A stretch of 64,000 nucleotides of DNA from Anaerolineales bacterium (lineage in GTDB: Bacteria > Chloroflexota > Anaerolineae > Anaerolineales > RBG-16-64-43): assembly GCA_050012135.1 (NCBI GenBank), contig JBEKHT010000004.1:13249-77248 (forward strand), in the 5' to 3' direction. The notes under the pieces are model-generated. The model saw only the letters and a program-made list of their open reading frames with translations, had not been told where the DNA came from and searched no databases. The position numbers and the translations under genes were made by a program. This document shows positions 3,214-61,751 of the stretch, piece by piece (the first letter of the stretch is position 1; each line of letters opens with the position of its first letter).

Positions 3214-4176
3214 TCATAGTTTATCAGACAACCACTTGTGGGTCGCCTCCACAACGGTGTGGGCGACCTGCTCCAACGAGCCGGGCACTGTGGCCCCGGC
3301 GGCGGCCGGGTGGCCTCCGCCGCCGTAGCGTTTCGCGATCGGGGTGATGTCGAGTCCGTTGTGAGCCCGCCAGCTCACTTTCACCGTCCCGCCCTCCTGT
3401 TCGACGAAGATCATCGCCAGGTCGGCTCCTTCCACACTGCTCAGGATGTTGATCAGGTCGGCATCGTCTCGACCGGGGTACCCGGCCAGCCTTCGGTCGG
3501 CGAGGCTGAGCCAAGTCCAGACCATCCGGTCCTCCCGCTCGATTCGCGAGAGTCCTGGGCCCCAGTACCGGGCCGCGGAGAAGCTGCGCCGGTTCATGCT
3601 CCATTCGACGATTTCCGAAAGATTCGCGCCGGCTCGCATCAGCTTCTGGGCGATCAGCATGCTCTTGGGATTGACGTTGGCGGTGCGGAACCCGAGCGTA
3701 TCGGTCACGAGCCCAGTGAGCAAACCCGTTGAGGCATTGAGGTTCAGGCTCAGGCGCAGCGGTTTCACGAGGTCGTATACGACTTCCGCCGTCGCGACAG
3801 CCTCCTGCTCGATCAAGTTTGCCTCTGCGAAAAGGCTGTTGGTCGTGTGATGATCGATATTGACGGTCGGAGCCGAAGGCAGAGGCGCAGAGAATTCTCC
3901 TACCCGGTCGGCGTCGGAGCAGTCGAGGTAGACAATGAGGTCGACTTCGGCGGGGATCTGCGAACTGACTTCCTTGTAGCCGGGCAGGAAATGGAAGGTC
4001 GCCGGGACGCCGTCCTTACTGAGCAGGTGGAGGGTCTTCCCCTTGCCGCGCAGCATCCAGGCCAGCCCGAGAAGCGAGCCCAGCCCGTCCCCGTCGGGTC
4101 TTTCGTGGGTGGCCAGCAAGATGTGCTGAGAGCGACGGAGGAATTCGCGCGCCTTCTTGGCACTGAGCTCATCCAT
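3214..4176 (-). CDS. nrnA: DHH/DHHA1 family phosphoesterase (NrnA-like oligoribonuclease / pAp phosphatase)
   Basis: Motifs HERPDGDGLGS, DHH (NIDHHTTN) and GGGGHPAAAG are present. The start was moved to the internal ATG (MDELSAKKAREFL), which overlaps the rbfA stop by 8 nt. Confidence 0.8.
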   Translation of the reverse strand: MDELSAKKAREFLRRSQHILLATHERPDGDGLGSLLGLAWMLRGKGKTLHLLSKDGVPATFHFLPGYKEVSSQIPAEVDLIVYLDCSDADRVGEFSAPLPSAPTVNIDHHTTNSLFAEANLIEQEAVATAEVVYDLVKPLRLSLNLNASTGLLTGLVTDTLGFRTANVNPKSMLIAQKLMRAGANLSEIVEWSMNRRSFSAARYWGPGLSRIEREDRMVWTWLSLADRRLAGYPGRDDADLINILSSVEGADLAMIFVEQEGGTVKVSWRAHNGLDITPIAKRYGGGGHPAAAGATVPGSLEQVAHTVVEATHKWLSDKL

Positions 4177-10048: not shown

Positions 10049-11809
10049 ATGGCCATCCATCTCCTTCCTCCGGAAGTCGCCTCTCAAATCGCCGCCGGAG
10101 AAGTCGTGGAACGACCCGCCTCCGTCGTCAAGGAATTGGTTGAGAACGCGCTGGATGCGGGCGCTCGCAACATCACGGTTCAGGTGGAGGGAGCCGGAAC
10201 GCGGCTGATCCGGGTTACCGACGACGGCAGCGGCATCCCCTCAGCAGAGATCCCCCTGACGGTGGAACGACACGCGACGAGCAAACTCAGCACGGCCGCG
10301 GACCTCCAGCGGATCGCCACCCTCGGGTTTAGGGGCGAGGCCCTCGCCTCCATCGCGGCCGTATCCCGACTGAAGCTGATAAGTCGTCCTGCCTCGGAGG
10401 AGCGGGGCGCCTCGATCTCCGTGGATGGGGGCCAGGCCACCCCCCCGAAACTGACGGGGGCCCCCCCTGGAACGAGCGTGACGGTGGAGGACCTGTTCTT
10501 CTCCGTCCCCGCTCGCCGGAAGTTCCTGAAGAGCGAGCAGACGGAGAGACGGCAAATCGACTTGCTCGTCTGCCGATACGCCCTCGCCTTCAGTCAGGTT
10601 CGCTTTCGATTGGCCCAAGAAGGGCGCGAGGTTCTGCGGACCAGTGGAAGCGGTGACCGGCGTGAGGCCCTGGCCGCCGTTTTTGGGGCGGACGTCGCCC
10701 GGAGCATGCTCGCCCTGCAGCCCCTCTCTGCCACAAGCCTGGTTTCGGTCGAGGGATTTGTCAGCCCTCCCAGCCGGTCGCACTCGAATCGAAGGGACAT
10801 CCTGCTGTTTGTCAATCGGCGTTGGATTCAGGACGGAGCCCTCACAACCGCGGTCGTGCAGGCCTACCACACCCTGCTCATGGTGGGGCGCTACCCGCTT
10901 GCGGCGCTCTTTCTCTCCCTGCCTCCCGAGGAGGTCGATGTCAATGTCCACCCGGCCAAGAAGGAGGTTCGCTTCCGCAATCCGAATGCGGTTTTCGCGG
11001 CCGTCCAAAAAACCATCCGTCAGAATCTGATTCAGTTTGCTCCGGTCGCGGGAACGGCAGAGCCGGGAGCGGGGGCCGCCTGGGGCCGGGGAGAACACGG
11101 CGACCGGCCCGTGTCGCCCGATTGGCACTTTCTGGAACCGGGACCGTTTCGGCCGAGTCTGACGGAGAACGGCAAAACGGCTCCTGCCTGGGCACCCGCC
11201 TGGCCGAGGCAGGATCCCTCGGCGCCGGCCTCGGTTCCCCCGCTTCGCGTGCTGGGTCAGGTAGGCGCAACCTACATCGTTGCCGAAGGACCGGATGGGC
11301 TCTACCTGATCGACCAGCACGCCGCGCACGAACGTGTCCTGTACGAGGGAATGATGCGCAATTTGGGGGCCGAGGGCTTCGCCCAGTCGCTGCTGCAGCC
11401 GGTGCTGATAGAACTTCCGGCGCCAAGCGCACAATTGATCCGGGATGAATTGATCAGTCTCCAACGGATTGGTTTTGACATCGAGGCCTTCGGAGAAAAG
11501 GCCTTTCGCATCCGGGCCATTCCCCCAGCCCTTCAGCGCCTCGGGGCGGAGGAAGCGATTCAGGCAGTGCTGGAGGACTTGGAGGGGGAGGAACCCCCTC
11601 TGGCCCAAGGCCGGGAGGCCCGCCTGATCGCTCGCGTCTGCAAAAGGGCGGCAGTCAAGGGCGGACAAGCCCTGCCGGTCGACGAGCAGGAGGCCTTGCT
11701 GAAGAAACTTGAGGAATGCGAATCGCCTCGGACGTGCCCTCACGGACGGCCGACGATGATTCGCCTGTCAGTCGACCTGCTCGAACGGCAGTTCGGCAGA
11801 AGGGGTTGA
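10049..11809 (+). CDS. mutL: DNA mismatch repair protein MutL
   Basis: LPPEVASQIAAGEVVERPASVVKELVENALDAGA and DDGSGI are GHKL motifs. The C-terminal dimerisation/endonuclease region contains YLIDQHAAHERV. Confidence 0.95.
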   Translation: MAIHLLPPEVASQIAAGEVVERPASVVKELVENALDAGARNITVQVEGAGTRLIRVTDDGSGIPSAEIPLTVERHATSKLSTAADLQRIATLGFRGEALASIAAVSRLKLISRPASEERGASISVDGGQATPPKLTGAPPGTSVTVEDLFFSVPARRKFLKSEQTERRQIDLLVCRYALAFSQVRFRLAQEGREVLRTSGSGDRREALAAVFGADVARSMLALQPLSATSLVSVEGFVSPPSRSHSNRRDILLFVNRRWIQDGALTTAVVQAYHTLLMVGRYPLAALFLSLPPEEVDVNVHPAKKEVRFRNPNAVFAAVQKTIRQNLIQFAPVAGTAEPGAGAAWGRGEHGDRPVSPDWHFLEPGPFRPSLTENGKTAPAWAPAWPRQDPSAPASVPPLRVLGQVGATYIVAEGPDGLYLIDQHAAHERVLYEGMMRNLGAEGFAQSLLQPVLIELPAPSAQLIRDELISLQRIGFDIEAFGEKAFRIRAIPPALQRLGAEEAIQAVLEDLEGEEPPLAQGREARLIARVCKRAAVKGGQALPVDEQEALLKKLEECESPRTCPHGRPTMIRLSVDLLERQFGRRG

Positions 11810-25089: not shown

Positions 25090-25569
25090 CCCAAGTTGGC
25101 CGGGCGATCGCGTCGTGCCGGAGTCGAGTGCTGAGCGCTTGCCCCGGTGCGCCGAGGAAAGTCCGCGCTCCAGAGAGCTAGACGCCGGGCAATGCCCGGG
25201 GCGGGGCGACCTGCCGGAAGAGGGCCACAGAGAAGAAGATTGCCGCGGAGCTCTCGGGCCACGCGGCGAGGGTGAAAGGGTGGTGTAAGAGACCACCGGC
25301 GTCGGCAGCAATGTCGACGGCCAGGCAACCCCCGTCTGGAGCAAGGCCAAACAGAGGCGAATCCCAGTGGGGTAGCACCCAATGGGTGCGGGCTGGCTCG
25401 GCCCGCCCAGCCTCGGGTAGGCTGCTTGAGCCGCACGGCAACGTGTCGGTCGAGATAGATGATCGCCGCCGGCCTGTGAGAAGGACGAAGCCGCAAGGCG
25501 TAAACTGCTTTGGAGGGTCAACCCCTTCCAGAAGGCCGGCACAGAACGCGGCTTACAGGTCAACTTGGG
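25090..25569 (+). ncRNA. rnpB: RNase P RNA, bacterial type A
   Basis: Contains GAGGAAAGTCCGCGCTCC (P4 5' strand), GGGTGAAAGGGTGGTGTAAGAGACCACC and CACAGAACGCGGCTTACAGG (P4 3' strand). P1 is formed by CCCAAGTTG (25090-) and CAACTTGGG (-25569). The ends are approximate. Confidence 0.85.
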
Positions 25570-25679
25570 CCCCCCACTTGAGGACTGCCGCAAACCCCCT
25601 CGGAACCCCGCTCGCCACACTCCAACACCCGCAACGGGCCTAGTTTCCTGACGCATGCCTTAAAACTTTGCGTTGCCAC

Positions 25680-55536: not shown

Positions 55537-55626
<90 letters not shown>

Positions 55627-55630
55627 TTCT

Positions 55631-55723
55631 GGGGAGGTGCCGGAGTCGGTCGATCGGGGGCGCCTGCTAAGCGCTTGTAGGGCCTTAAAAGCTCTACCCA
55701 GGGTTCGAATCCCTGCCTCCCCG
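55631..55723 (+). tRNA. tRNA-Ser (anticodon GCT)
   Basis: Folded manually: acceptor GGGGAGG/CCTCCCC, anticodon loop CTGCTAA, long variable arm, T-loop TTCGAAT. Confidence 0.9.
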
Positions 55724-55797
55724 CTATCTGCTCGACCTTGGAGCTGGACGCTCCTGGGCCAAGGGAAGGGTCGCAGTTCGGAACGTCAAGTGAACAT

Positions 55798-55873
55798 GCC
55801 CTCGTAGCTCAGTTTGGATTAGAGCACTTGCTTGCGGAGCAAGGGGTCGCGCGTTCGAGTCGCGCCGGGGGCG
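55798..55873 (+). tRNA. tRNA-Arg (anticodon GCG by manual fold)
   Basis: Acceptor GCCCTCG/CGGGGGC, D-arm GCTCAGTTTGGATTAGAGC, anticodon stem CTTGC/GCAAG with loop TTGCGGA, T-arm GCGCGTTCGAGTCGCGC. Confidence 0.85.
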
Positions 55874-55876
55874 CCT
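55828..55876 (+). repeat. attL copy of the 49-bp direct repeat (3' part of tRNA-Arg)
   Basis: TTGCTTGCGGAGCAAGGGGTCGCGCGTTCGAGTCGCGCCGGGGGCGCCT is identical to 61669-61717. Confidence 0.9.
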
Positions 55877-55979: not shown

Positions 55980-56885
55980 GTGTCCCAAAGACAATTGCTT
56001 GGGCAGGTTGGAATTGGCCTGCAGCTTTCCCCGTTGGACACCGCGTACCAGGATTTCCTCCTCTCTCGGCAGGCCATGCCTTGCACGGACGCGACCATGC
56101 AGCACTACCGCTATACGGCTGGCGTGTTCGTCACCTGGCTCCAGCTCCAAGGCGTGACAGATCCGAAAGGGGTCACGGCTGGCCACGTCCGCCAGTGGCA
56201 GGCCGAAAATGCAGGCCGCCTGAAAGACACCTCGCAGCATGCCAGGGCGAGGGGCGTTCGCACCTTCCTGCGTTTCCTCCACACGGAAGAGACTGTTCCC
56301 ACCCTCGTGAAAGTGCAAATGCCCAGGCTCGAAAAGAGGCGACTTCCCTGCCTCGAAGCGGATGAGGTCCATCGGATCCTGAAGGACTGTGACGCCAGGA
56401 AGAGGGCGATCGTCATGCTCCTGGCCAGCTCGGGAGTCCGGGCCGCTGAGCTCTGTAATCTCACTTGGGGAGACCTGGACATGCAGACCGGCCTGCTTTT
56501 CGTGCATCGCGGGAAGGGCCGCAAAGATCGCACCACGGTGGTCAGCCCGAAGGCAAGGCGAGCGCTACTCCGCTACCGCAGTACTCTCAAGTCGGCGCCG
56601 ACCGCCGAGTCGCCGTTGATCCAGGGCAGGGGAGGGAGGCGACTCGCGCCCTGTTGGCTGTCCCACATGGTTCATCAGTTGGGCAAGCGGAAGGGACTCT
56701 ACGTCACCCCGCATGCGCTCAGGCGAACGTTCGCCATTCAAACCCTACGTGGAGGAATGAACGTGCTCGCGCTGCAGCGCTTGCTAGGTCACGCGGACCT
56801 TAGCATGACGCAACACTCTTGCCAGCTGCTCGACGAGGACTTGATCCGGGCGCACGAAAAGGCCGATCTCGACTCGTGGCTCTAA
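55980..56885 (+). CDS. tyrosine recombinase family integrase (catalytic Tyr position is Ser)
   Basis: SSGVRAAEL (Arg I), HALRRTF (His-x-x-Arg) and LLGHADLSMTQHSCQL align gap-free to XerD LLGHSDLSTTQIYTHV. The GTG start lies behind GGAAGGAGG. Confidence 0.85.
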   Translation: MSQRQLLGQVGIGLQLSPLDTAYQDFLLSRQAMPCTDATMQHYRYTAGVFVTWLQLQGVTDPKGVTAGHVRQWQAENAGRLKDTSQHARARGVRTFLRFLHTEETVPTLVKVQMPRLEKRRLPCLEADEVHRILKDCDARKRAIVMLLASSGVRAAELCNLTWGDLDMQTGLLFVHRGKGRKDRTTVVSPKARRALLRYRSTLKSAPTAESPLIQGRGGRRLAPCWLSHMVHQLGKRKGLYVTPHALRRTFAIQTLRGGMNVLALQRLLGHADLSMTQHSCQLLDEDLIRAHEKADLDSWL

Positions 56886-57436
56886 CAGGAGGGCCGAAAG
56901 GCTCCCGACGCCAACCCGGCACATACCACGCGGACTAGGGCCGCGATTCCCCACATGGCCATGAGCGAAATAGTTATCCGTCGGGCGAGTCGGGGGTCAT
57001 GACCACTCCTTCGCTTGGGCAGTCGGCCCAATTCGGTCCGCACAGCTTGGAGCATGGGCTGGCCGTCTTCGTTTTCGACTAGCTCTAGATCGAAGCGTTC
57101 GGGAGGGCTTGAAATCCATCTGACAGCGAGGATCCCACATGCCATCTGTTCGTTGGCAGCTTCCTCACGCAGGCACAGTTGCCAGAAGACAAAGCGGATC
57201 GCCTTCACCTCTGTGAAGACGATGAGAGCGAGAAACACCATCAAGTCGAAGCAAGGAAAAGTGGCGTAGCGGGGGAGCTTGGCGAGGGAGCGGGCAGTAG
57301 CCCCCGTCAGAAAGAGCGCGGTAGCCCCCCAGGCCATTAGCTCCTTGTGGTTGTGGTAGCTCCCCCAAAGCGCCATCTGAGTCCGAATGTATTCGGTTGC
57401 CAAATCGAGTCTGATTGAGGGTCGGTTTTCGGCCAT
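56882..57436 (-). CDS. hypothetical membrane protein (island cargo)
   Basis: The ORF was trimmed to the ATG behind GGAGGAGGA. It has about 3 predicted TMs (WGATALFLTGATA; DLMVFLALIVFTEV; ITISLMAMWGIAALVRVVCAGLA). No motif recognised. Confidence 0.55.
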   Translation of the reverse strand: MAENRPSIRLDLATEYIRTQMALWGSYHNHKELMAWGATALFLTGATARSLAKLPRYATFPCFDLMVFLALIVFTEVKAIRFVFWQLCLREEAANEQMACGILAVRWISSPPERFDLELVENEDGQPMLQAVRTELGRLPKRRSGHDPRLARRITISLMAMWGIAALVRVVCAGLASGAFRPSC

Positions 57437-57518
57437 TGGTCCTCCTCCAGGCGCACGGGCTCGACTCTTGGCCATAGGGGTGGCCTTAGGCAGCACGGCG
57501 ACGCGAGGAACGGGGGGG

Positions 57519-58133
57519 CTATTCTGATGGGGGCTTGAATCCAATCGGCCTCGACGTGTTAGCTTCCTTGTGGAGAACCGCCTTCCTTGTCGGCTTGTCT
57601 AGCCAGTATCTCTCCACGGTGTAGAACCAATCGAGCAATGCCCGTGCGGTCTTGACCCCTTCCTCCTTGTTTACGGTGTTGCCTCGTGTTATGTCATGTT
57701 GCTTCCCCTGTCCAAACCATCGTGCGCCATAGGCATATGAGCTGTTGGGGGCCTCCCTAGCGAAGACCTCAACGAATGGAGTGCTTTCGTCGTCAGCGCT
57801 CTCATAGAAAAAGACTTTCACTGAGAGAGACGACTCATCATGGATGGTGGGGTCCACTTGGGACGGCAAGTCATAGTAGGTTTCATCAGTTGAGAGCACG
57901 AAAAGGTCGAAGCCGTTCAATGTCAGCGTCGCCTGGAGCATTCCTTGGGCATCGGCGGTTTTCTTGTAGCGCTTGACGCTCCTCAGGCCAGCTGCCTCGG
58001 CCTCCTGAGTAAACAGCTCCAACGTTTCAAGCAGACCTTGGCGAAACGGGATTAATCTGTCTAGCAGTTGCCTCCTCCTCGACCCGAGTTTGTCCTCTTT
58101 GGCCTTCAATTCTGATATGTTGGCGCCTGGCAT
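57519..58133 (-). CDS. hypothetical protein (island cargo)
   Basis: 205 aa behind AGGAGG in visibly AT-richer DNA. The composition looks like a soluble protein. No motif recognised. Confidence 0.6.
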   Translation of the reverse strand: MPGANISELKAKEDKLGSRRRQLLDRLIPFRQGLLETLELFTQEAEAAGLRSVKRYKKTADAQGMLQATLTLNGFDLFVLSTDETYYDLPSQVDPTIHDESSLSVKVFFYESADDESTPFVEVFAREAPNSSYAYGARWFGQGKQHDITRGNTVNKEEGVKTARALLDWFYTVERYWLDKPTRKAVLHKEANTSRPIGFKPPSE

Positions 58134-58223
58134 ATGCATCCTCCTATTGTGCCGAGATAAGCCCAAATTCCCCACCACGATTGTAGGCGCAGCCGTGACA
58201 GGCCGCAACCGTTCGCGGGGGAT

Positions 58224-58490: not shown

Positions 58491-59867
58491 TAGCAGGCTG
58501 CGGAAGAATCTGGAACGAACAAGCGAATGACCTTCATGGCAGTTCTTGAATCCACCCTCAGTTGGTCAACCGCCCAAGTCAGGGCTCCCGAAAAACCCTT
58601 TTGGGGAGCTCATGTGCCTCGGATCTTCAGCCTTGCGAGCGCCTGGCGATTAGGCCCTCGCGGCTTCGAGATTCCTGATCCGCAGCAGGTCGAATGCTGT
58701 CAGACAGAAGATGAATATCCAACCCACGCGCGGCGCACCCCGGTGACGCGTCTTCCTCAAGGCTCCCACTGTCTTCATCCAGCCAAAGACCTTCTCAATC
58801 AGCTTTCGCTTCCATTGACTGAGCTCGTATCCCTTGTGCCGAGTGGTGCGGCCGTCAATCGCACTGCGGCGATGGCTCTCGTTTTGGGCCACATGAGGTG
58901 TGACCCCCATCTCTCGCAACGTCGTCACGAAGCCCCGCGTGTCGAAGCTCTTGTCCCCTCCCACCGTCAGCCGCCCCGGTGCCTTCTTTTGGCCGCCCGC
59001 ACCATCTCTTCTGCCGCATCTCGCTCCGCCGTGCCCGTCGCCTGCGTCAGCCGGGCATCCACCACCAGCCCATTGCGGTTTTCCATCAGGACGTGCCCCA
59101 GGTAGCACAGCTTGGCTTCTTTCCCCGGGCCCTTGCGATACAGCTTGGCCTGCGGATCCGTCGTGGATTGGTGGGTCGCATTCGTCCGCCTCTCGCCGTG
59201 GAAGTCCTCTTGCGAACTGGCCCCGGAATCATCCGGCCCCTTGCTCGACGCCTTGTGCCGCCTCCGGTAGCTTTTGTTTCCCGCCCAGGCTTCGATCAGC
59301 GTGCCATCCACGGTGAAATGCTCGTCGCTGGTAAGCCCCTTTTCGCTTGCCAGGGCAAGCACTTCCTTGAAGAAGGCTTGGGCAATCTTGCCCTCCAGCA
59401 ACCGCCGGCGGTTCTTGTTGAACACGGTGGGGTCCCAGATCGGGTCGTCCATGCTCAGCCCCACGAACCAGCGGAAAAGCATGTTGTAGTCGAGCTGCTC
59501 CATCAGCATCCGCTCGCTGCGGATGGTGTAAAGCACCTGAAGCAAGAGGGCCCTCAGCAACCGCTCCGGAGGGATCGACGGTCGTCCCACCTTGGAGTAC
59601 AGCTTATCGAAGCGGGGCGACAAGCGCTCGAGGACCTCGTCCACCATCTTCCGGATGGACCGCAGGGGATGATCGGCCGGAATCCTCTGCTCCTGAGACA
59701 CATACGACCACATCCCGGTGTCATCACTGTCATTTCCGCGCATGGCCCTCGACCTCCGTCATCGCTTGATCACTACGCAGTGGCCGCGCAGCAGGCTACA
59801 ACACCCGGTCGAGGGTTAGAGATTCGTTTTCAATGGCTTCAGTCAGACGTTTTTCCGCAACCTGCTA
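58491..59867 (-). mobile_element. IS5-family insertion sequence (about 1.38 kb)
   Basis: Imperfect terminal inverted repeats: TAGCAGGCTGCGGAAGAAT (58491-) against the reverse complement of 59849-59867, TAGCAGGTTGCGGAAAAAC. It encloses a DDE transposase. A possible TA target duplication flanks it. Confidence 0.8.
58650..59743 (-). pseudogene. IS5-family DDE transposase split by a +1 frameshift
   Basis: ORF 58967-59743 has the DUF772-like N-terminus and the first Asp (FTVDGTLIEA). ORF 58650-59108 has GGDKSFDT...IEKVFGWMK. The frames switch near GCGGCCAAAAGAAGG at about 58985. Confidence 0.75.
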
Positions 59868-60363
59868 GACGAATCAGCGCCGGAGTGCGCTCGTCAATCC
59901 AGTTCTCCATCTGCCGATCCCAAGCCCAACCCATTCAGCACCCCGGAGCAAAAACCGTCTGCCACTTGCGCAGGCGGTCGGGCGGTGCTAATCTGACCTT
60001 GCCGCGCACTCGCCTGCGTTGGCCTCCGCCCGGTCGCTCAAACGACGCGGGCGGTTTCGTACATTCCAATGATAGCACTCAAGTCAATGCCAAGACTGGC
60101 GGCCGTTCGCCATTTTTTTGATCCGCTGCGCGGTTGACCTCGCCTCCGATCCGCTGTAAGGTGACATTGCCGTGGGGAACCTTGACCTGGCCCCCCTAAG
60201 CAAAGGCCGCTCGCAAGGGCGACCTTTTGAATCCTTCAGTTTCCGCCATCTTGGCTGAAACTCCCACGACGTCGCCCCGCTCATCACCTCTCGCTTCAGC
60301 TTCGGATCCGACAGAACACGACGGGCTCGGACCTCGCCCTGTCCAGGTAGCACGCTGACGCGG

Positions 60364-61410
60364 CTACAATTCCTTCGACTGAGCCCGAGCAATCACCTCC
60401 CGCACTTGCTTTCGGGTGTTAATTGGGAATATCTGGACTTCGGGATGACTTCCTGCAAACACGCGGAAGACCTCGTCGCCGAAAGCCAGACCAATTGTCT
60501 TGATGCCACGGAAGTCGAGGACAATTTCCTTGAACCTCTCGAATCGAACAAGCAGACGTTTCGCTTGGGATCGGGAGACCAAGTTTTCCTCACCGACGCG
60601 GGCAAGCGTAACGGGGACGACGGTTCGAGTGAAACCGAACTCACCATCTTGCGTTGTGAACTGATCAAAGACCTTTCGAGTTGTCCGCTGGGATCGTGTC
60701 GAGATCGACATCCGAATGTAGGTGCCCTCAGTGATCTTGCCATTGGCTTCTAAGAGCCAATCCTCGAGCTTGCCGACAGGTCGTGTATGGCTAAAGAAGA
60801 GGCTTCCCGACATCATCACGAAATCGTCGAACATTCTCGAGGTGAAGAACACGCCTTCGCCGGTGTGATGGTTGGGATCGGTAGTCACCTTGCCTTTTGC
60901 GAGTTCAAGAATGCTGTCGCGGGGGTCGGGCAGGTTTAGAGCCCGCTGGATCTTGTTGAAGATGCCCACCCCATTGTCCGAGACCACGAGTCGCACAGAT
61001 GCCAGCGTGTAGGTAAGGCCTACCGAGGCGGAAATCGCCTCTGAGTGGTCAACCACATTCTGGAGCATCTCAGTGAGCCCGTACTCGCAGATGTGGACCA
61101 CGTTTTCGGGGAGGTTGGCCAGCAGGGGGCGGACGTCGTCGCGCCAGACGATGTCTTCCTGCAGTCCGGGCCATACGGTATATGGAAAAATCTTGTCGAC
61201 GATGGGCAGGAGCCTGTATGCCCTGTCCCGCGTCCTACCCTCCACGCCCACTTGTCCATCTTGGATGAGCTGGTGCATGTGACGAAGAACAGCGGGTCTG
61301 CTTATGTCGAATTGACTTGCCGTGAATGAGACGACGTCCTTGGGGTGGTCAGCCACATTGGCGACCAGAAAGGCTCTTATCTTCTCACTGCCGGCGCGTT
61401 GAGATGGCAT
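60364..61410 (-). CDS. wHTH - GHKL ATPase (SpoIIAB/RsbW-like) - STAS-like (DUF4325-type) fusion protein
   Basis: HTH-like FDISRPAVLRHMHQLIQDGQV. N-box EMLQNVVDHS, G1 VVSDNGVGI, G2 HHTGEGVFF. The C-terminus reads SRSQAKRLLVRFERFKEIVLDFRGIKTIGLAFGDEVFRVF. Confidence 0.75.
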   Translation of the reverse strand: MPSQRAGSEKIRAFLVANVADHPKDVVSFTASQFDISRPAVLRHMHQLIQDGQVGVEGRTRDRAYRLLPIVDKIFPYTVWPGLQEDIVWRDDVRPLLANLPENVVHICEYGLTEMLQNVVDHSEAISASVGLTYTLASVRLVVSDNGVGIFNKIQRALNLPDPRDSILELAKGKVTTDPNHHTGEGVFFTSRMFDDFVMMSGSLFFSHTRPVGKLEDWLLEANGKITEGTYIRMSISTRSQRTTRKVFDQFTTQDGEFGFTRTVVPVTLARVGEENLVSRSQAKRLLVRFERFKEIVLDFRGIKTIGLAFGDEVFRVFAGSHPEVQIFPINTRKQVREVIARAQSKEL

Positions 61411-61449
61411 AGTGCGGACCCCTCCGTATTCTAAACAATTCTAGGTCCT

Positions 61450-61478
61450 ATTGTAAACATTATCGATCAGATTGTCAA
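61450..61478 (-). promoter_or_regulatory. near-consensus sigma70 promoter upstream of the GHKL-STAS gene
   Basis: The minus strand reads TTGACA, a 17-nt spacer, then TACAAT, about 40 nt before the ATG, with RBS GGAGGGG. Confidence 0.55.
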
Positions 61479-61668
61479 CATACCATTCCATGACCCCGCT
61501 CTTGATCGTCGCCTCGGCAATGAGTCGAACGCTCGCCAGTGATATCGCCACTCGACTAACCAGCGGAAACGTGGTAAAAGAATTGCCGCCCGACTTTGAG
61601 AGACGGGCATTGATCAGGGAAGGTGAGTTTTACAGGAGCTGAGGTTCCTCACCCCGAAAACCGTTGGG

Positions 61669-61717
61669 TTGCTTGCGGAGCAAGGGGTCGCGCGTTCGAG
61701 TCGCGCCGGGGGCGCCT
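61669..61717 (+). repeat. attR copy of the 49-bp direct repeat (orphan 3' part of tRNA-Arg)
   Basis: Identical to 55828-55876. The preceding sequence does not encode a tRNA 5' half. Confidence 0.9.
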
Positions 61718-61726
61718 TTGGCATGA

Positions 61727-61751
61727 GGCCGCGGATTCGCGGCCTTTTTTT
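61727..61751 (+). terminator. rho-independent terminator (original tRNA-Arg terminator)
   Basis: GGCCGCG-GATT-CGCGGCC followed by TTTTTTT. Confidence 0.75.

What the first reader, a model, noticed from the sequence alone, without database searches (positions are those of the whole stretch)
60364..61478. Island cargo: single-polypeptide wHTH + SpoIIAB-like GHKL ATPase + STAS-like domain behind a consensus promoter
The 348-aa protein combines three parts. The first is an N-terminal HTH-like segment. The second is a Bergerat-fold ATPase/kinase core (N-box EMLQNVVDHS, G1 DNGVGI, G2 GEGVFF) of the anti-sigma-kinase type. The third is a C-terminal region I recognise as the STAS-like DUF4325 type (LDFRGIKTIGLAFGDEVF). 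In classical partner switching the kinase and its STAS substrate are separate proteins. Here both are fused to a DNA-binding domain, so sensing, switching and output could sit in one chain. The gene lies in AT-rich acquired DNA. It is preceded by TTGACA-17-TACAAT, the closest match to consensus among the promoter-like sites I examined in this window. I know of no experimentally defined function for this architecture. It is a plausible stand-alone regulator or defence/abortive-infection component of the island.
Basis: partly seen in the sequence, partly recalled or inferred. Interest (0 to 1): 0.7.

Follow-up and report, generated by a model that had tools for sequence, protein, structure and literature searches.

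The report
Mobile one-gene switch with built-in operator
This island gene belongs to a very large, uncharacterised, horizontally spreading family that fuses a DNA-binding domain, an anti-sigma-type ATP-binding domain and a STAS-like domain, and what looked like a perfect promoter is a conserved array of three repeats that the protein most likely binds to control itself.

Summary
A 348-aa ORF (60364-61410, minus strand) encodes a winged HTH, a SpoIIAB-like GHKL ATP-binding domain and a C-terminal DUF4325/STAS-like domain. It lies in a 5.8-kb integrase island flanked by a perfect 49-nt repeat of the tRNA-Arg 3' end.

The architecture is not rare. A profile search finds 4,204 clusters (50% identity), almost all 340-360 aa, across many phyla. 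No functional study turned up.

Three new points:
- **Operator.** The "consensus promoter" TTGACA-17-TACAAT is built from two of three direct repeats, TGTT(G/T)A(C/G)AAT, spaced 21 and 22 nt. The same array precedes homologs in many phyla. A blind metagenome scan for the repeat pattern gave 75 hits, and 70 sit directly upstream of a family gene. Divergent homologs carry different repeats at the same spacing. This points to a self-operator bound by the wHTH.
- **No canonical phospho-site.** The STAS phospho-serine position is alanine in this family, so classical kinase-to-substrate switching there is unlikely.
- **Mobility.** The gene has no conserved partner and is AT-richer than its flanks in 56 of 62 loci. 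Split GHKL + DUF4325 gene pairs occur in temperate phages.

A defence or addiction role is plausible but unproven.

The parts
60364..61410 (-). CDS, 348 aa: wHTH + SpoIIAB-like GHKL + STAS-like (DUF4325) protein
   Evidence: ORF list. Full-length homologs number more than 5,355. The profile search finds 4,204 clusters. The AF2 model has pLDDT 80 and pTM 0.72.
61171..61410 (-). N-terminal winged helix-turn-helix, about aa 1-80. The likely recognition helix is aa 38-50 (SRPAVLRHMHQL).
   Evidence: The model shows H2-18, H26-34, H38-50 and a hairpin E54-57/E64-67. Local Foldseek hits to Z-alpha and ArsR-type wHTH domains have probability 1.0. The ArsR HMM gives only E 0.1. The motif ISRQAxxRH is conserved.
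60691..61158 (-). GHKL (Bergerat-fold) ATP-binding domain of SpoIIAB/RsbW type, about aa 85-240
   Evidence: Best PDB fold hits are SpoIIAB 1til_E, 1l0o_A and 1th8_A. In the 68-sequence alignment these residues are invariant: E114 and N118 (N box), D145, G147 and G149 (G1), K172-G173-K174, T176-T177, and G184-E185-G186 (lid/G2). Pfam HATPase_c_2 gives E 8.7e-5, below its cutoff.
60376..60639 (-). C-terminal STAS-like domain (DUF4325), about aa 258-345. It carries an invariant S279-R280-S281-Q282-A283 motif. The canonical STAS phospho-serine position is G307-L308-A309.
   Evidence: Pfam PF14213, E 8.7e-11. The domain model has pLDDT 82. Its top Foldseek hits are STAS domains, with TMq about 0.6 and E 0.016-0.4. 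Alignment with phage DUF4325 proteins.
61419..61425 (-). Shine-Dalgarno-like GGAGGGG, 8 nt before the ATG
   Evidence: Read from the sequence.
61471..61480 (-). Repeat R1, TGTTGACAAT. It supplies the -35 hexamer TTGACA (61473-61478).
   Evidence: The family-wide array is shown.
61450..61459 (-). Repeat R2, TGTTTACAAT, 21 nt after R1. It supplies the -10 hexamer TACAAT (61450-61455) and a second -35-like TTTACA.
61428..61437 (-). Repeat R3, TGTTTAGAAT, 22 nt after R2. It supplies a second -10-like TAGAAT. In the 99%-identical locus L001 it reads TGTTTACAAT.
55828..55876 (+). attL: 49-nt repeat, the 3' part of tRNA-Arg(GCG) (gene at 55798-55875)
61669..61717 (+). attR: identical 49-nt copy of the tRNA-Arg 3' end. 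A terminator-like hairpin follows at 61725-61746.
55980..56885 (+). Island tyrosine integrase (301 aa)
   Evidence: Pfam Phage_integrase, E 2.4e-31.
58631..60218 (-). IS element with a DUF772 + DDE transposase, inserted 146 bp downstream of the target gene's stop codon. The transposase is split into two overlapping ORFs (58967-59743 and 58650-59108).
   Evidence: Terminal inverted repeat I3. Pfam DUF772 and DDE_Tnp.
56882..58208 (-). Two near-orphan island ORFs (229 aa at 57519-58208, 220 aa at 56882-57544) on the same strand as the target gene, beyond the IS
   Evidence: No Pfam, PHROG or PADLOC-type hits. Only two homologs each. One homolog lies in another integrase/restriction island.

Best explanation
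The gene is one copy of a widespread, horizontally mobile one-gene cassette. The cassette consists of a control region plus a three-domain protein.

**Shown.**
- The protein has an N-terminal winged HTH.
- It has a SpoIIAB/RsbW-type GHKL domain with all ATP/Mg-binding residues conserved.
- It has a C-terminal STAS-like DUF4325 domain.
- The control region is three direct repeats, TGTT(G/T)ACAAT, 21-22 bp apart (two helical turns).
- R1 provides the -35 hexamer and R2 the -10 hexamer. R2 and R3 form a second, overlapping promoter-like pair.
- The array travels with the gene across phyla.

**Inferred.**
- The wHTH binds the repeats as a head-to-tail oligomer and covers its own promoter, giving autorepression. 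The strong portable promoter is therefore kept throttled.
- The GHKL domain binds ATP and engages the STAS-like domain, either in the same chain or in the neighbouring protomer on the DNA.
- The nucleotide state, or an unknown ligand or partner that displaces the STAS-like domain, then changes oligomerisation and DNA binding.
- The position of the SpoIIAA phospho-serine is alanine, so the switch probably works by binding and not by phosphorylation at that site.
- The downstream biological output is not determined. Candidates are a second target of the GHKL domain, or a few further operator sites elsewhere in the genome.
For: **Domains.**

**Catalytic residues.** The 68-sequence alignment and the 75-sequence alignment show them conserved.

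**Repeat array in the window.** Three hits against 0.12 expected, all upstream of the gene.

**Repeat array in relatives.**
- 36 of 70 genome loci have at least two exact TT[GT]ACAA heptamers within 130 nt upstream, against 0.024 expected.
- 44 of 64 spacings are 21-22 nt.
- The heptamers sit at fixed positions, about -65, -44 and -22 from the start codon.
- A triple-repeat score of at least 15/18 is reached in 41 of 72 target upstream regions, against 4 of 664 control upstream regions.

**Blind metagenome scan.** Searching for the repeat pattern alone gave 75 stretches. In 69 a family gene starts just downstream on the same strand, usually 7-28 nt away. One more copy is cut off by a contig end.

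**Co-variation.** Divergent homologs carry different 9-mers at the same spacing: GTTGACAGA, AATTGATAA, TTTACAAAG, CGAATAACT. Their helix-3 sequences also differ.

**Self-contained cassette.**
- No conserved neighbour in 74 genome loci. The 114 immediate neighbours span 152 Pfam families.
- The four loci with called genes (including the window's own) look monocistronic.

**Mobility.**
- The gene's GC is more than 3 points below its flanks in 56 of 62 loci. The mean difference is -9.5 points and it is never above +3.
- In the window the gene sits in a tRNA-Arg integrase island.

**GHKL-DUF4325 link.** Separate adjacent genes for the two domains occur in Streptococcus phage JX01 and Bacteroides phage BF1-TP2. 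A homologous ATPase followed by an overlapping 98-aa gene (aligned with DUF4325 proteins, not scanned against Pfam) occurs in Burkholderia phage vB_E188.
Against: - No binding, ATPase or expression data exist. Autorepression is inferred from geometry and co-occurrence only.
- R1/R2 and R2/R3 would also work as plain tandem promoters. One metagenome array drives a tRNA gene (L132).
- The co-variation between helix 3 and the repeat sequence was judged by eye, not tested statistically.
- I could not inspect inter-domain contacts in the model, because no coordinates or PAE were available.
- The window copy deviates from near-invariant family residues: N117Q, Q308L and A311G. Its third repeat is degenerate (TAGAAT). 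This copy could therefore be partly decayed.
- In nine Anaerolineae/Chloroflexia loci the gene sits in one conserved housekeeping neighbourhood. That fits a stably kept regulator as well as a mobile cassette.
Confidence: 0.6

Rival explanations
1. Single-gene conflict module, either anti-phage/abortive infection or toxin-antitoxin-like addiction. The GHKL domain is a kinase or sequestering effector acting on a host or phage protein. The fused STAS-like domain holds it in check as a built-in antagonist. The wHTH only provides antitoxin-style autoregulation. This concerns the biological role and is compatible with the autoregulated-switch mechanism.
For: - The gene is island cargo next to an integrase and an IS.
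- It is compositionally foreign nearly everywhere.
- Its distribution across phyla is patchy, at 45-55% identity.
- Split GHKL + DUF4325 pairs lie in accessory regions of temperate phages: between lysin and integrase in JX01, and beside the integrase and a BrnTA pair in vB_E188. In Francisella phage KIRK a 293-aa hypothetical protein and a DUF4325 gene lie between cI and the integrase (PMC7924643).
- A VapC-like PIN group is reported as transcriptionally coupled to DUF4325 genes (PMC5499597).
- Some homologs sit beside restriction-modification or other defence genes: an MmeI-like gene in L076, and type I M/S-like, AbiEi and DRT hits among neighbours.
- Tight autoregulation of a strong promoter is typical of such modules.
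Against: - No PADLOC family matches the protein.
- No copy is found on 72,556 plasmids or 50,697 phage records at E 1e-5, and none of the repeat arrays is found in viral contigs.
- Most of the neighbours examined are housekeeping genes, and no integrase or defence family appears among the 25 most frequent Pfam families of the immediate neighbours.
- The E. coli three-gene candidate VPUS, which contains a STAS-like-annotated protein, was predicted, cloned and scored 'defensive = FALSE'.
- The phage pairs have a different build, with an N-terminal STAS-like segment and no wHTH, so transferring function from them is loose.
Confidence: 0.3
2. An ordinary ATP-responsive transcription factor whose main job is to regulate other genes elsewhere in the genome. 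The self-operator is just feedback.
For: - The wHTH is conserved.
- Three of 73 non-repetitive metagenome arrays precede other genes: a tRNA, a 96-aa ORF and an FmdB-like zinc-ribbon gene.
- Nine Anaerolineae/Chloroflexia loci share the same syntenic position.
Against: - 70 of 73 arrays are at the family gene itself.
- No second array exists in the 64-kb window. In about 1 Mb of flanking DNA from related loci, the only other convincing consensus repeat pairs lie at the 3' end of the gene itself in two loci (L061, L064).
- A stably kept regulator with a host regulon would not be expected to be AT-skewed against its host in 56 of 62 loci.
Confidence: 0.2
3. The repeats are only a portable pair of overlapping sigma-70 consensus promoters that work in any host. 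No protein binds them specifically.
For: - R1+R2 match 11/12 and R2+R3 match 10/12 of the promoter consensus.
- The repeat unit contains both TTGACA-like and TACAAT-like hexamers.
- One such array precedes a tRNA gene.
Against: - Divergent homologs keep three or more repeats at 21-22 nt spacing even when the unit does not resemble promoter hexamers, for example CGAATAACT, ATGTTCCAA and AATTGATAA.
- Conservation extends beyond the hexamers to TGTT...AAT.
- The array is almost exclusive to this gene family in a collection of 241 million metagenome records.
Confidence: 0.12
4. Classical partner switching. The kinase domain phosphorylates the fused STAS-like domain on the canonical serine and thereby releases a sigma factor or frees the HTH.
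For: - The fold is SpoIIAB-like and a TTK-like lid motif is present.
- The partner domain has a STAS-like fold.
- Stand-alone phage DUF4325 proteins keep Ser at the equivalent position.
Against: - The equivalent position is G-Q/L-A-F, with Ala309 in at least 90% of the family.
- No sigma factor gene recurs among the neighbours.
- Other serines are invariant (S279, S281), but they lie at the N-cap of helix alpha1, not at the SpoIIAA site.
Confidence: 0.1

Closest known systems
SpoIIAB / RsbW anti-sigma factor serine kinases with SpoIIAA / RsbV STAS antagonists (partner-switching modules)
   Same: - The central domain's best structural matches are SpoIIAB chains, with TM 0.72-0.75 normalised to the target.
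- It has the N box E-x-x-x-N-x-x-x-H, the G1 motif D-x-G-x-G, a lid motif K-G-K-x-T-T-D-P and then G-E-G. My reading from memory is that the lid resembles SpoIIAB's F-T-T-K-P...G-M-G.
- The partner domain has a STAS-like fold.
   Different: - Kinase-like and STAS-like parts are fused in one chain, with a wHTH added.
- The phospho-acceptor serine is replaced by alanine.
- No sigma factor or PP2C phosphatase gene is associated.
- The STAS-like domain is shorter than a full STAS domain: one strand, then alpha1-beta3-alpha2-beta4-alpha3.
Pfam PF14213 (DUF4325, 'STAS-like domain of unknown function')
   Same: The C-terminus is a bona fide member, at 41.8 bits against a cutoff of 23. Sources name homologs 'DUF4325 domain-containing protein', 'anti-sigma regulatory factor (Ser/Thr protein kinase)' or 'ArsR family transcriptional regulator'.
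   Different: The Pfam entry has no function attached. Only three papers in the searched library mention it, all in passing. Stand-alone DUF4325 proteins of about 100-120 aa keep Ser at the SpoIIAA-like position. The fused family does not.
Two-gene GHKL ATPase + DUF4325 pairs of temperate phages (Streptococcus JX01 and relatives, Burkholderia vB_E188, Bacteroides BF1-TP2, probably Francisella KIRK)
   Same: The same two domains are linked genetically. A HATPase_c_2-type protein is followed, often with overlapping stop and start, by a DUF4325 protein. phrog_3364 matches the GHKL part of the window protein at E 2.7e-7.
   Different: - The phage ATPases lack the wHTH. At least two of them instead begin with what looks like another STAS-like segment (LTVDMRNIEFAEPSGV, IYLDFEPLQFIDTTGV), read from the sequences and not tested.
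- I saw no repeat array upstream of them.
- Sequence identity to the window protein is only 22-31% over parts of the protein.
Autoregulated DNA-binding ATPases and iteron-type operators (for example type Ia ParA with its N-terminal HTH, or plasmid Rep proteins binding iterons spaced about 22 bp apart): an analogy from general knowledge
   Same: Direct repeats two helical turns apart overlap the gene's own promoter. A winged-helix domain is joined to a nucleotide-binding domain, so nucleotide state could gate operator binding.
   Different: - The ATPase fold is different: GHKL, not Walker-type.
- There is no partner partition or replication gene.
- No copies are found on plasmids.
- There are only three repeats, and they are confined to the promoter.

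Membership tests
GHKL / Bergerat-fold ATP-binding superfamily | N box (E...N), G1 box (DxGxG) and G2 box (GxG) are present and conserved | tested here: met
   E114, N118, D145, G147, G149, G184 and G186 are invariant in the 68-sequence alignment and at least 97% conserved in 75 genome-derived sequences.
GHKL / Bergerat-fold ATP-binding superfamily | Significant match to a curated HATPase profile | tested here: inconclusive
   HATPase_c_2 scores 23.0 bits against a cutoff of 27.4, and HATPase_c scores 19.2 against 26.4. Many close homologs carry precomputed PF13581 or PF02518 hits.
GHKL / Bergerat-fold ATP-binding superfamily | Bergerat alpha/beta sandwich fold | tested here: met
   The AF2 model's top PDB hits are SpoIIAB, followed by the DesK catalytic domain, UsfX, HtpG and MutL.
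SpoIIAB/RsbW-type anti-sigma serine kinase partner-switching module | STAS partner with a phosphorylatable Ser/Thr at the N-terminus of helix alpha2 | tested here: not met
   The position is G307-L308-A309 in the window protein and G-Q-A in the family, with A309 in at least 90%. Phage stand-alone DUF4325 proteins have Ser there.
SpoIIAB/RsbW-type anti-sigma serine kinase partner-switching module | Genetic association with a sigma factor and/or a PP2C phosphatase | tested here: not met
   Neither appears among the 25 most frequent Pfam families of 114 immediate neighbours. One sigma/anti-sigma pair lies about 4 kb away in a single locus, which is not recurrent.
SpoIIAB/RsbW-type anti-sigma serine kinase partner-switching module | Protein kinase activity and sigma factor binding | not testable with these tools
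   Needs in vitro ATPase and phosphotransfer assays and pull-downs.
DUF4325 / STAS-like (PF14213) | Match above Pfam's gathering score | tested here: met
   41.8 bits against 23, covering aa 282-336 and profile positions 1-63 of 64.
STAS fold | Structural similarity to solved STAS domains | tested here: met
   The top hits of the domain model are STAS domains: stressosome RsbR/S (probability 1.0, TMq 0.60), RsbS, SLC26 STAS domains, TM1081 and SpoIIAA (TMq 0.58). E-values are weak, at 0.016-0.4.
Winged helix-turn-helix DNA-binding domain | Three helices plus a beta-hairpin wing, and similarity to known wHTH domains | tested here: met
   Secondary structure of the model, with pLDDT above 90. 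Local hits to Z-alpha (TMt 0.76) and to viral ArsR-type HTH proteins. The sequence HMM gives only E 0.1.
Winged helix-turn-helix DNA-binding domain | Sequence-specific binding to the upstream repeats | not testable with these tools
   Inferred from co-occurrence and co-variation. Needs EMSA or footprinting.
tRNA-targeted integrative island | Integrase next to a tRNA gene, a direct repeat of the tRNA 3' end at the far border, and deviating base composition | tested here: met
   The terminator-like hairpin now follows attR.
Known anti-phage defence systems (PADLOC-DB 2.0) | Match to any defence protein model | tested here: not met
   Zero families at E up to 1.
Toxin-antitoxin / abortive-infection module | Toxicity of the effector when its antagonist is removed, and phage- or stress-triggered activation | not testable with these tools
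   Only indirect hints are available: the autoregulatory layout, mobility, phage accessory-region pairs and PIN-DUF4325 coupling.

The most novel reading that the evidence does not exclude
The cassette is a previously unrecognised class of single-chain partner-switch immunity or addiction module.

- An anti-sigma-type GHKL effector is held inactive by its own non-phosphorylatable STAS-like domain.
- The protein polymerises head-to-tail on three promoter-embedded repeats to throttle its own very strong, host-independent promoter.
- A trigger such as a phage protein or an ATP/ADP shift releases it, so that it acts on a host or phage target, possibly a sigma factor or RNA polymerase.

The repeat unit mimics both -35 and -10 hexamers. 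The wHTH might therefore also compete with sigma-70 at consensus promoters.
Probability: 0.25. Interest if true: 0.85.

Novelty: new variant of a known kind. Interest (0 to 1): 0.62.

Why it matters
Partner switching between an anti-sigma kinase and a STAS antagonist is a textbook bacterial signalling device, always described as separate proteins.

Here the same two folds are fused to a DNA-binding domain in a family of thousands of genes. The family spans Chloroflexota, Planctomycetota, Nitrospirota, Omnitrophota, Patescibacteria, Spirochaetota, Bacillota and Proteobacteria. I found no functional study of it.

The cassette carries its own near-consensus promoter made of the protein's presumed binding sites. 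Together with the consistent AT skew against the host, this suggests a self-sufficient mobile unit that can be expressed and controlled in almost any bacterium.

That makes it directly testable: one gene, one 55-bp operator, and clear point mutants. It is potentially useful as a compact, host-independent, ATP-responsive autoregulatory part. If it turns out to be a defence or addiction module, it would add a new effector logic to that field.

Tried and rejected
1. **Conserved partner gene.** I clustered all ORFs within 10 kb in 74 genome loci. No cluster apart from the family itself is present in more than 15 loci. The recurrent clusters are ABC transporters, PAS/LuxR proteins, or an Anaerolineae synteny block: pdxT, a PTPase-like gene, a SpoIIIAA-like AAA/R3H gene, tmk and htrA.
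2. **A partner gene destroyed by the IS downstream.** tblastn of the recurrent neighbour clusters against the window found nothing.
3. **Known defence families.** PADLOC gave no hit for the protein. The 'mad8/mad2/mad3' hits among neighbours are probably generic. The MADS preprint calls mad2 the methyltransferase. I read mad3 as the specificity subunit, and I assume the mad8 hits are the SpoIIIAA-like AAA genes. Neither assumption was checked.
4. **Large neighbours I guessed were restriction enzymes.** They turned out to be PPDK, ValRS, PolA, CorA and MraW.
5. **Plasmid and phage records.** tblastn gave no match at 1e-5. Only by relaxing to E 10 did a weak phage ATPase hit lead to the split pairs.
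6. **Sequence search of the PDB.** Only marginal DesK hits.
7. **BFVD fold search.** No full-length viral analogue.
8. **Literature.** Searches for DUF4325, PF14213, IPR025474, and STAS-like plus GHKL found no functional study.
9. **Repeat array in IMG/VR viral contigs.** Zero hits.
10. **Repeat pairs inside coding sequence.** Those in L008, L012 and L050 come from the conserved I-C-Q-Y-G-F-T-E-x-x-N-N codons. I dismissed them as a by-product of protein conservation.
11. **Island ORFs of 229 and 220 aa.** Each has only two homologs, so they are near-orphans and uninformative.
Full report
**1. Observation check**

The ORF at 60364-61410 on the minus strand is real and encodes 348 aa. It starts at an ATG preceded at 8 nt by GGAGGGG.

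Pfam places a DUF4325 'STAS-like' domain at aa 282-336 (E 8.7e-11, above the curated cutoff). It places a sub-threshold HATPase_c_2 match at aa 98-198 (E 8.7e-5, 23 bits against 27.4). NCBIfam gives only weak histidine-kinase and ArsR-HTH hits.

The promoter-like site TTGACA-17-TACAAT lies at 61478-61450 on the minus strand and matches 11 of 12 positions. It is the best such site in the whole window. The only other site reaching 10/12 overlaps it.

**2. Structure**

An AlphaFold2 model built on 68 homologs has mean pLDDT 80 and pTM 0.72. It shows three parts:
- a helix-helix-helix-hairpin winged HTH (aa 1-80);
- an alpha/beta sandwich (aa 85-240);
- a small alpha/beta domain (aa 258-345).

Foldseek against the PDB puts SpoIIAB first (1til_E, 1l0o_A, 1th8_A; probability 1.0; TM 0.72-0.75 on the target). 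The DesK catalytic domain and the mycobacterial anti-sigma-F factor UsfX follow.

The C-terminal domain modelled alone has pLDDT 82. Its top hits are STAS domains: stressosome, RsbS, SLC26 transporters, TM1081 and SpoIIAA. TM is about 0.6 on the query, but E-values are only 0.016-0.4.

**3. Conservation and the phospho-site**

These residues are invariant in a 68-sequence alignment and nearly so in 75 sequences taken from genomes of many phyla:
- E114 and N118 (with H122 and S123);
- D145, G147, G149;
- K172-G173-K174, T176-T177;
- G184-E185-G186.

The ATP site therefore looks intact.

In the STAS-like domain the loop before helix alpha2 reads G307-L308-A309-F310. This is where SpoIIAA carries its phosphorylated serine, a placement I made from memory of the SpoIIAA sequence. 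Ala309 is present in at least 90% of the family.

Three stand-alone phage DUF4325 proteins have Ser at that position: SSSF, PSSF and SRSF. Classical phosphorylation of the fused STAS-like domain at the canonical site is therefore unlikely.

An invariant S279-R280-S281-Q282-A283 motif caps helix alpha1. Its role is unknown.

**4. How common is it**

The word-indexed search found more than 5,355 relatives. The top 120 are all full length and 49-99% identical. Sources name them 'DUF4325 domain-containing protein', 'anti-sigma regulatory factor (Ser/Thr protein kinase)' or 'ArsR family transcriptional regulator'.

A profile search of 1.84 billion cluster representatives gave 4,204 hits at E up to 1e-3 and 1,243 at E up to 1e-30. 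Nearly all are 340-360 aa and match end to end.

Genome hits come from Anaerolineae and other Chloroflexota, Planctomycetota (Singulisphaera), Nitrospirota, Omnitrophota, Patescibacteria, Spirochaetota (Treponema vincentii), Bacillota, Binatia and Proteobacteria.

The fused architecture is therefore a standard, very successful design, not an oddity of this island. The literature library holds three papers that mention DUF4325, all in passing. None mentions PF14213 or IPR025474.

**5. The island**

A perfect 49-nt direct repeat lies at 55828-55876, which is the 3' part of tRNA-Arg(GCG), and again at 61669-61717. It brackets 5.8 kb containing:
- a tyrosine integrase;
- two near-orphan ORFs;
- an IS with a split DUF772/DDE transposase, bounded by inverted repeats at 58631 and 60218;
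- the target gene.

A terminator-like hairpin sits directly after attR. That is as expected if the island inserted into the end of the tRNA gene.

The island is 58.6% GC and the gene 55.4%, against 62.7% for the rest of the window. The same island occurs at 99.1% identity, over the 13.6 kb that overlap the window, in a 1-Mb metagenome contig.

The one homolog of the 229-aa ORF that lies outside this island sits in a different island with an integrase, an MmeI-like enzyme, DUF4238 and IS21.

**6. The main new finding: the promoter is a repeat array**

Printing the 110 nt upstream of each homolog showed the same layout again and again. It reads GTTGACAAT, about 12 nt, GTTTACAAT, about 13 nt, GTTTACAAT, then the ribosome-binding site.

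In the window the three units are:
- R1, TGTTGACAAT (61480-61471);
- R2, TGTTTACAAT (61459-61450);
- R3, TGTTTAGAAT (61437-61428).

Their spacing is 21 and 22 nt. These are the only three matches to TGTTKASAAT in 64 kb, against 0.12 expected. R1 supplies the -35 hexamer and R2 the -10 hexamer. R2 and R3 form a second overlapping promoter-like pair.

Across 70 genome loci:
- 36 have at least two exact TT[GT]ACAA heptamers within 130 nt upstream on the gene's strand, against 0.024 expected;
- 44 of 64 spacings are 21-22 nt;
- positions cluster at about -65, -44 and -22.

A motif-free triple-repeat score of at least 15/18 is reached by 41 of 72 target upstream regions. Only 4 of 664 upstream regions of other genes in the same loci reach it.

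Divergent homologs have their own repeated 9-mers at the same spacing: GTTGACAGA, AATTGATAA, TTTACAAAG, CGAATAACT and CTTTATAAT. Their putative recognition helices also differ.

**7. Blind test of the association**

I scanned the metagenome collection for the DNA pattern alone and found 75 stretches.
- In 69 a family gene starts on the same strand just after the array, usually 7-28 nt away. One more is cut off by the contig end.
- Two are 11-nt tandem-repeat arrays.
- Three precede other genes: a tRNA, a 96-aa ORF and an FmdB-like zinc-ribbon gene.

No such array exists in IMG/VR contigs. No second array exists in the window. Within the related loci, the only other convincing pairs of consensus repeats lie at the 3' end of the gene itself, in L061 and L064.

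The array and the gene are therefore one unit. Three same-face direct repeats covering -35, -10 and the start region most simply read as an operator for the protein's own wHTH, giving autorepression. That step is inference.

**8. Genomic context of the family**

No neighbour is conserved. The 114 immediately flanking ORFs hit 152 different Pfam families. The gene usually has its own intergenic regions on both sides.

Nine Anaerolineae/Chloroflexia loci share a housekeeping neighbourhood: pdxT, a PTPase-like gene, the target, a SpoIIIAA-like AAA/R3H gene, then tmk. Three loci lie between a NifS-like gene and a phosphoglucomutase.

Some loci abut restriction or other defence genes. Most of the neighbours I examined are ordinary genes.

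The gene's GC content is more than 3 points below that of its flanks in 56 of 62 loci. The mean difference is -9.5 points, the extreme is -24, and it is never above +3. This includes the syntenic Anaerolineae loci. This points to repeated horizontal acquisition of an AT-rich cassette, or to strong constraint on its composition.

**9. Split versions in phages**

PHROGs gave one hit, phrog_3364, on the GHKL part. A relaxed tblastn led to Streptococcus phage JX01.

- **JX01.** A 233-aa HATPase_c_2 protein is followed by a 99-aa DUF4325 protein (Pfam E 8.9e-11), between the lysin and the integrase. Six further full-length copies occur in other streptococcal phage records, plus a partial one in B30.
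- **Burkholderia phage vB_E188.** A 32%-identical ATPase is followed by an overlapping 98-aa gene next to the integrase and a BrnTA pair.
- **Bacteroides phage BF1-TP2.** An 'ATP-binding protein' overlaps a 'DUF4325 domain-containing protein'.
- **Francisella phage KIRK.** A 293-aa hypothetical protein and a DUF4325 gene lie between cI and the integrase (PMC7924643).

The two domains are thus functionally linked, in the gene fusion/fission sense, and they occur in phage accessory regions. The phage ATPases lack the wHTH. At least two begin with what looks like another STAS-like segment, read from the sequences and not tested.

**10. Defence role?**

The hints are the mobility, the island location, the phage pairs and the PIN coupling.

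Several results count against it:
- No PADLOC model matches.
- No plasmid or phage carries the fused gene.
- In the DefensePredictor study, an E. coli three-gene candidate was predicted and cloned, and is listed as defensive = FALSE. [quoted passage not shown] I could not check how VPUS relates to the present family.

I therefore rate the defence/addiction reading at about 0.3.

**11. Verdict**

The finding is real, and the domain reading is right. What is there is a member of a very large uncharacterised family. It is best described as a mobile, self-operated, single-chain variant of the anti-sigma/STAS partner-switching theme.

The most useful new result is the conserved three-repeat operator/promoter. 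It turns the 'consensus promoter' into a specific, testable protein-DNA interaction.

The window copy has a few substitutions at near-invariant positions (N117Q, Q308L, A311G) and a degenerate third repeat. A close homolog may therefore be the better experimental subject.

Noticed in passing
window 25092-25571 (+): Bacterial RNase P RNA, class A (Rfam RF00010, 206 bits). It is unrelated to the finding.
   Followed up: no
window 55537-55875 (+): A cluster of tRNA-Ser(TGA), tRNA-Ser(GCT) and tRNA-Arg(GCG). The last one is the island's integration site.
   Followed up: yes
window 61725-61746 (+): A strong terminator-like hairpin (9 pairs followed by a T run) lies immediately after attR. It is probably the tRNA-Arg gene's original terminator, displaced by 5.8 kb when the island inserted.
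   Followed up: partly
window 58631-60218: An IS with a DUF772 + DDE transposase, split into two overlapping frames (58967-59743 and 58650-59108). This is either a frameshifted pseudogene or a programmed frameshift. It separates the target gene from three same-strand island ORFs that may once have been co-transcribed with it.
   Followed up: partly
L157 1861-9737: The only homolog of the 229-aa island ORF found outside this island (83% identity) lies in a different island of the same sample. That island has an integrase, an MmeI-like restriction-modification enzyme, DUF4238 and IS21, so it looks like a defence island.
   Followed up: partly
L061 about 10920-10955; L064 about 3238-3273: In two distant homologs a pair of GGTTGACAAT repeats, 22-23 nt apart, also sits right at the 3' end of the gene. 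The repeats therefore flank the gene on both sides. The meaning is unknown; looping or a second promoter for the next gene are possibilities.
   Followed up: no
L132 519-571 and downstream: A canonical triple array (GGTTGACAAT / GGTTTACAAT / GGTTTACAAT) lies directly in front of a tRNA-like sequence, not a family gene. L141 (a 96-aa ORF) and L145 (an FmdB-like zinc-ribbon ORF) are the other two exceptions. They may be extra targets of such a protein, or remnants of a lost cassette.
   Followed up: partly
L110 about 1050-1190; L143 about 400-560: Long 11-nt tandem arrays of GTGTTGACAAT-like units in metagenome contigs. The unit is the same as the operator repeat but at one-turn spacing. Nature unknown.
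   Followed up: no
L079 3063-4251; L080 2953-4160; L081 2575-3818: Temperate phages carry a two-gene pair: a GHKL ATPase followed by a DUF4325 protein. The JX01 and vB_E188 ATPases seem to begin with a further STAS-like segment containing a Ser/Thr-Gly motif (EPSG, DTTG). These could be genuine phosphorylation-type partner switches in phage accessory regions.
   Followed up: partly
L003, L007, L008, L009, L012, L014, L015, L016, L025: In nine Anaerolineae/Chloroflexia genomes the gene sits at one conserved position, near a SpoIIIAA-like AAA/R3H gene on one side and, in most of them, a PTPase-like gene on the other. Where flanks were long enough to measure, it is 6-19 GC points below them. This is either an insertion hot spot or an old acquisition that has not ameliorated.
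   Followed up: partly
window 61428-61437 versus L001: The 99.1%-identical copy of the island has TGTTTACAAT at repeat R3 and GGGGGGG at the ribosome-binding site. The window has TGTTTAGAAT and GGAGGGG. That is two substitutions within 30 nt of control region.
   Followed up: no
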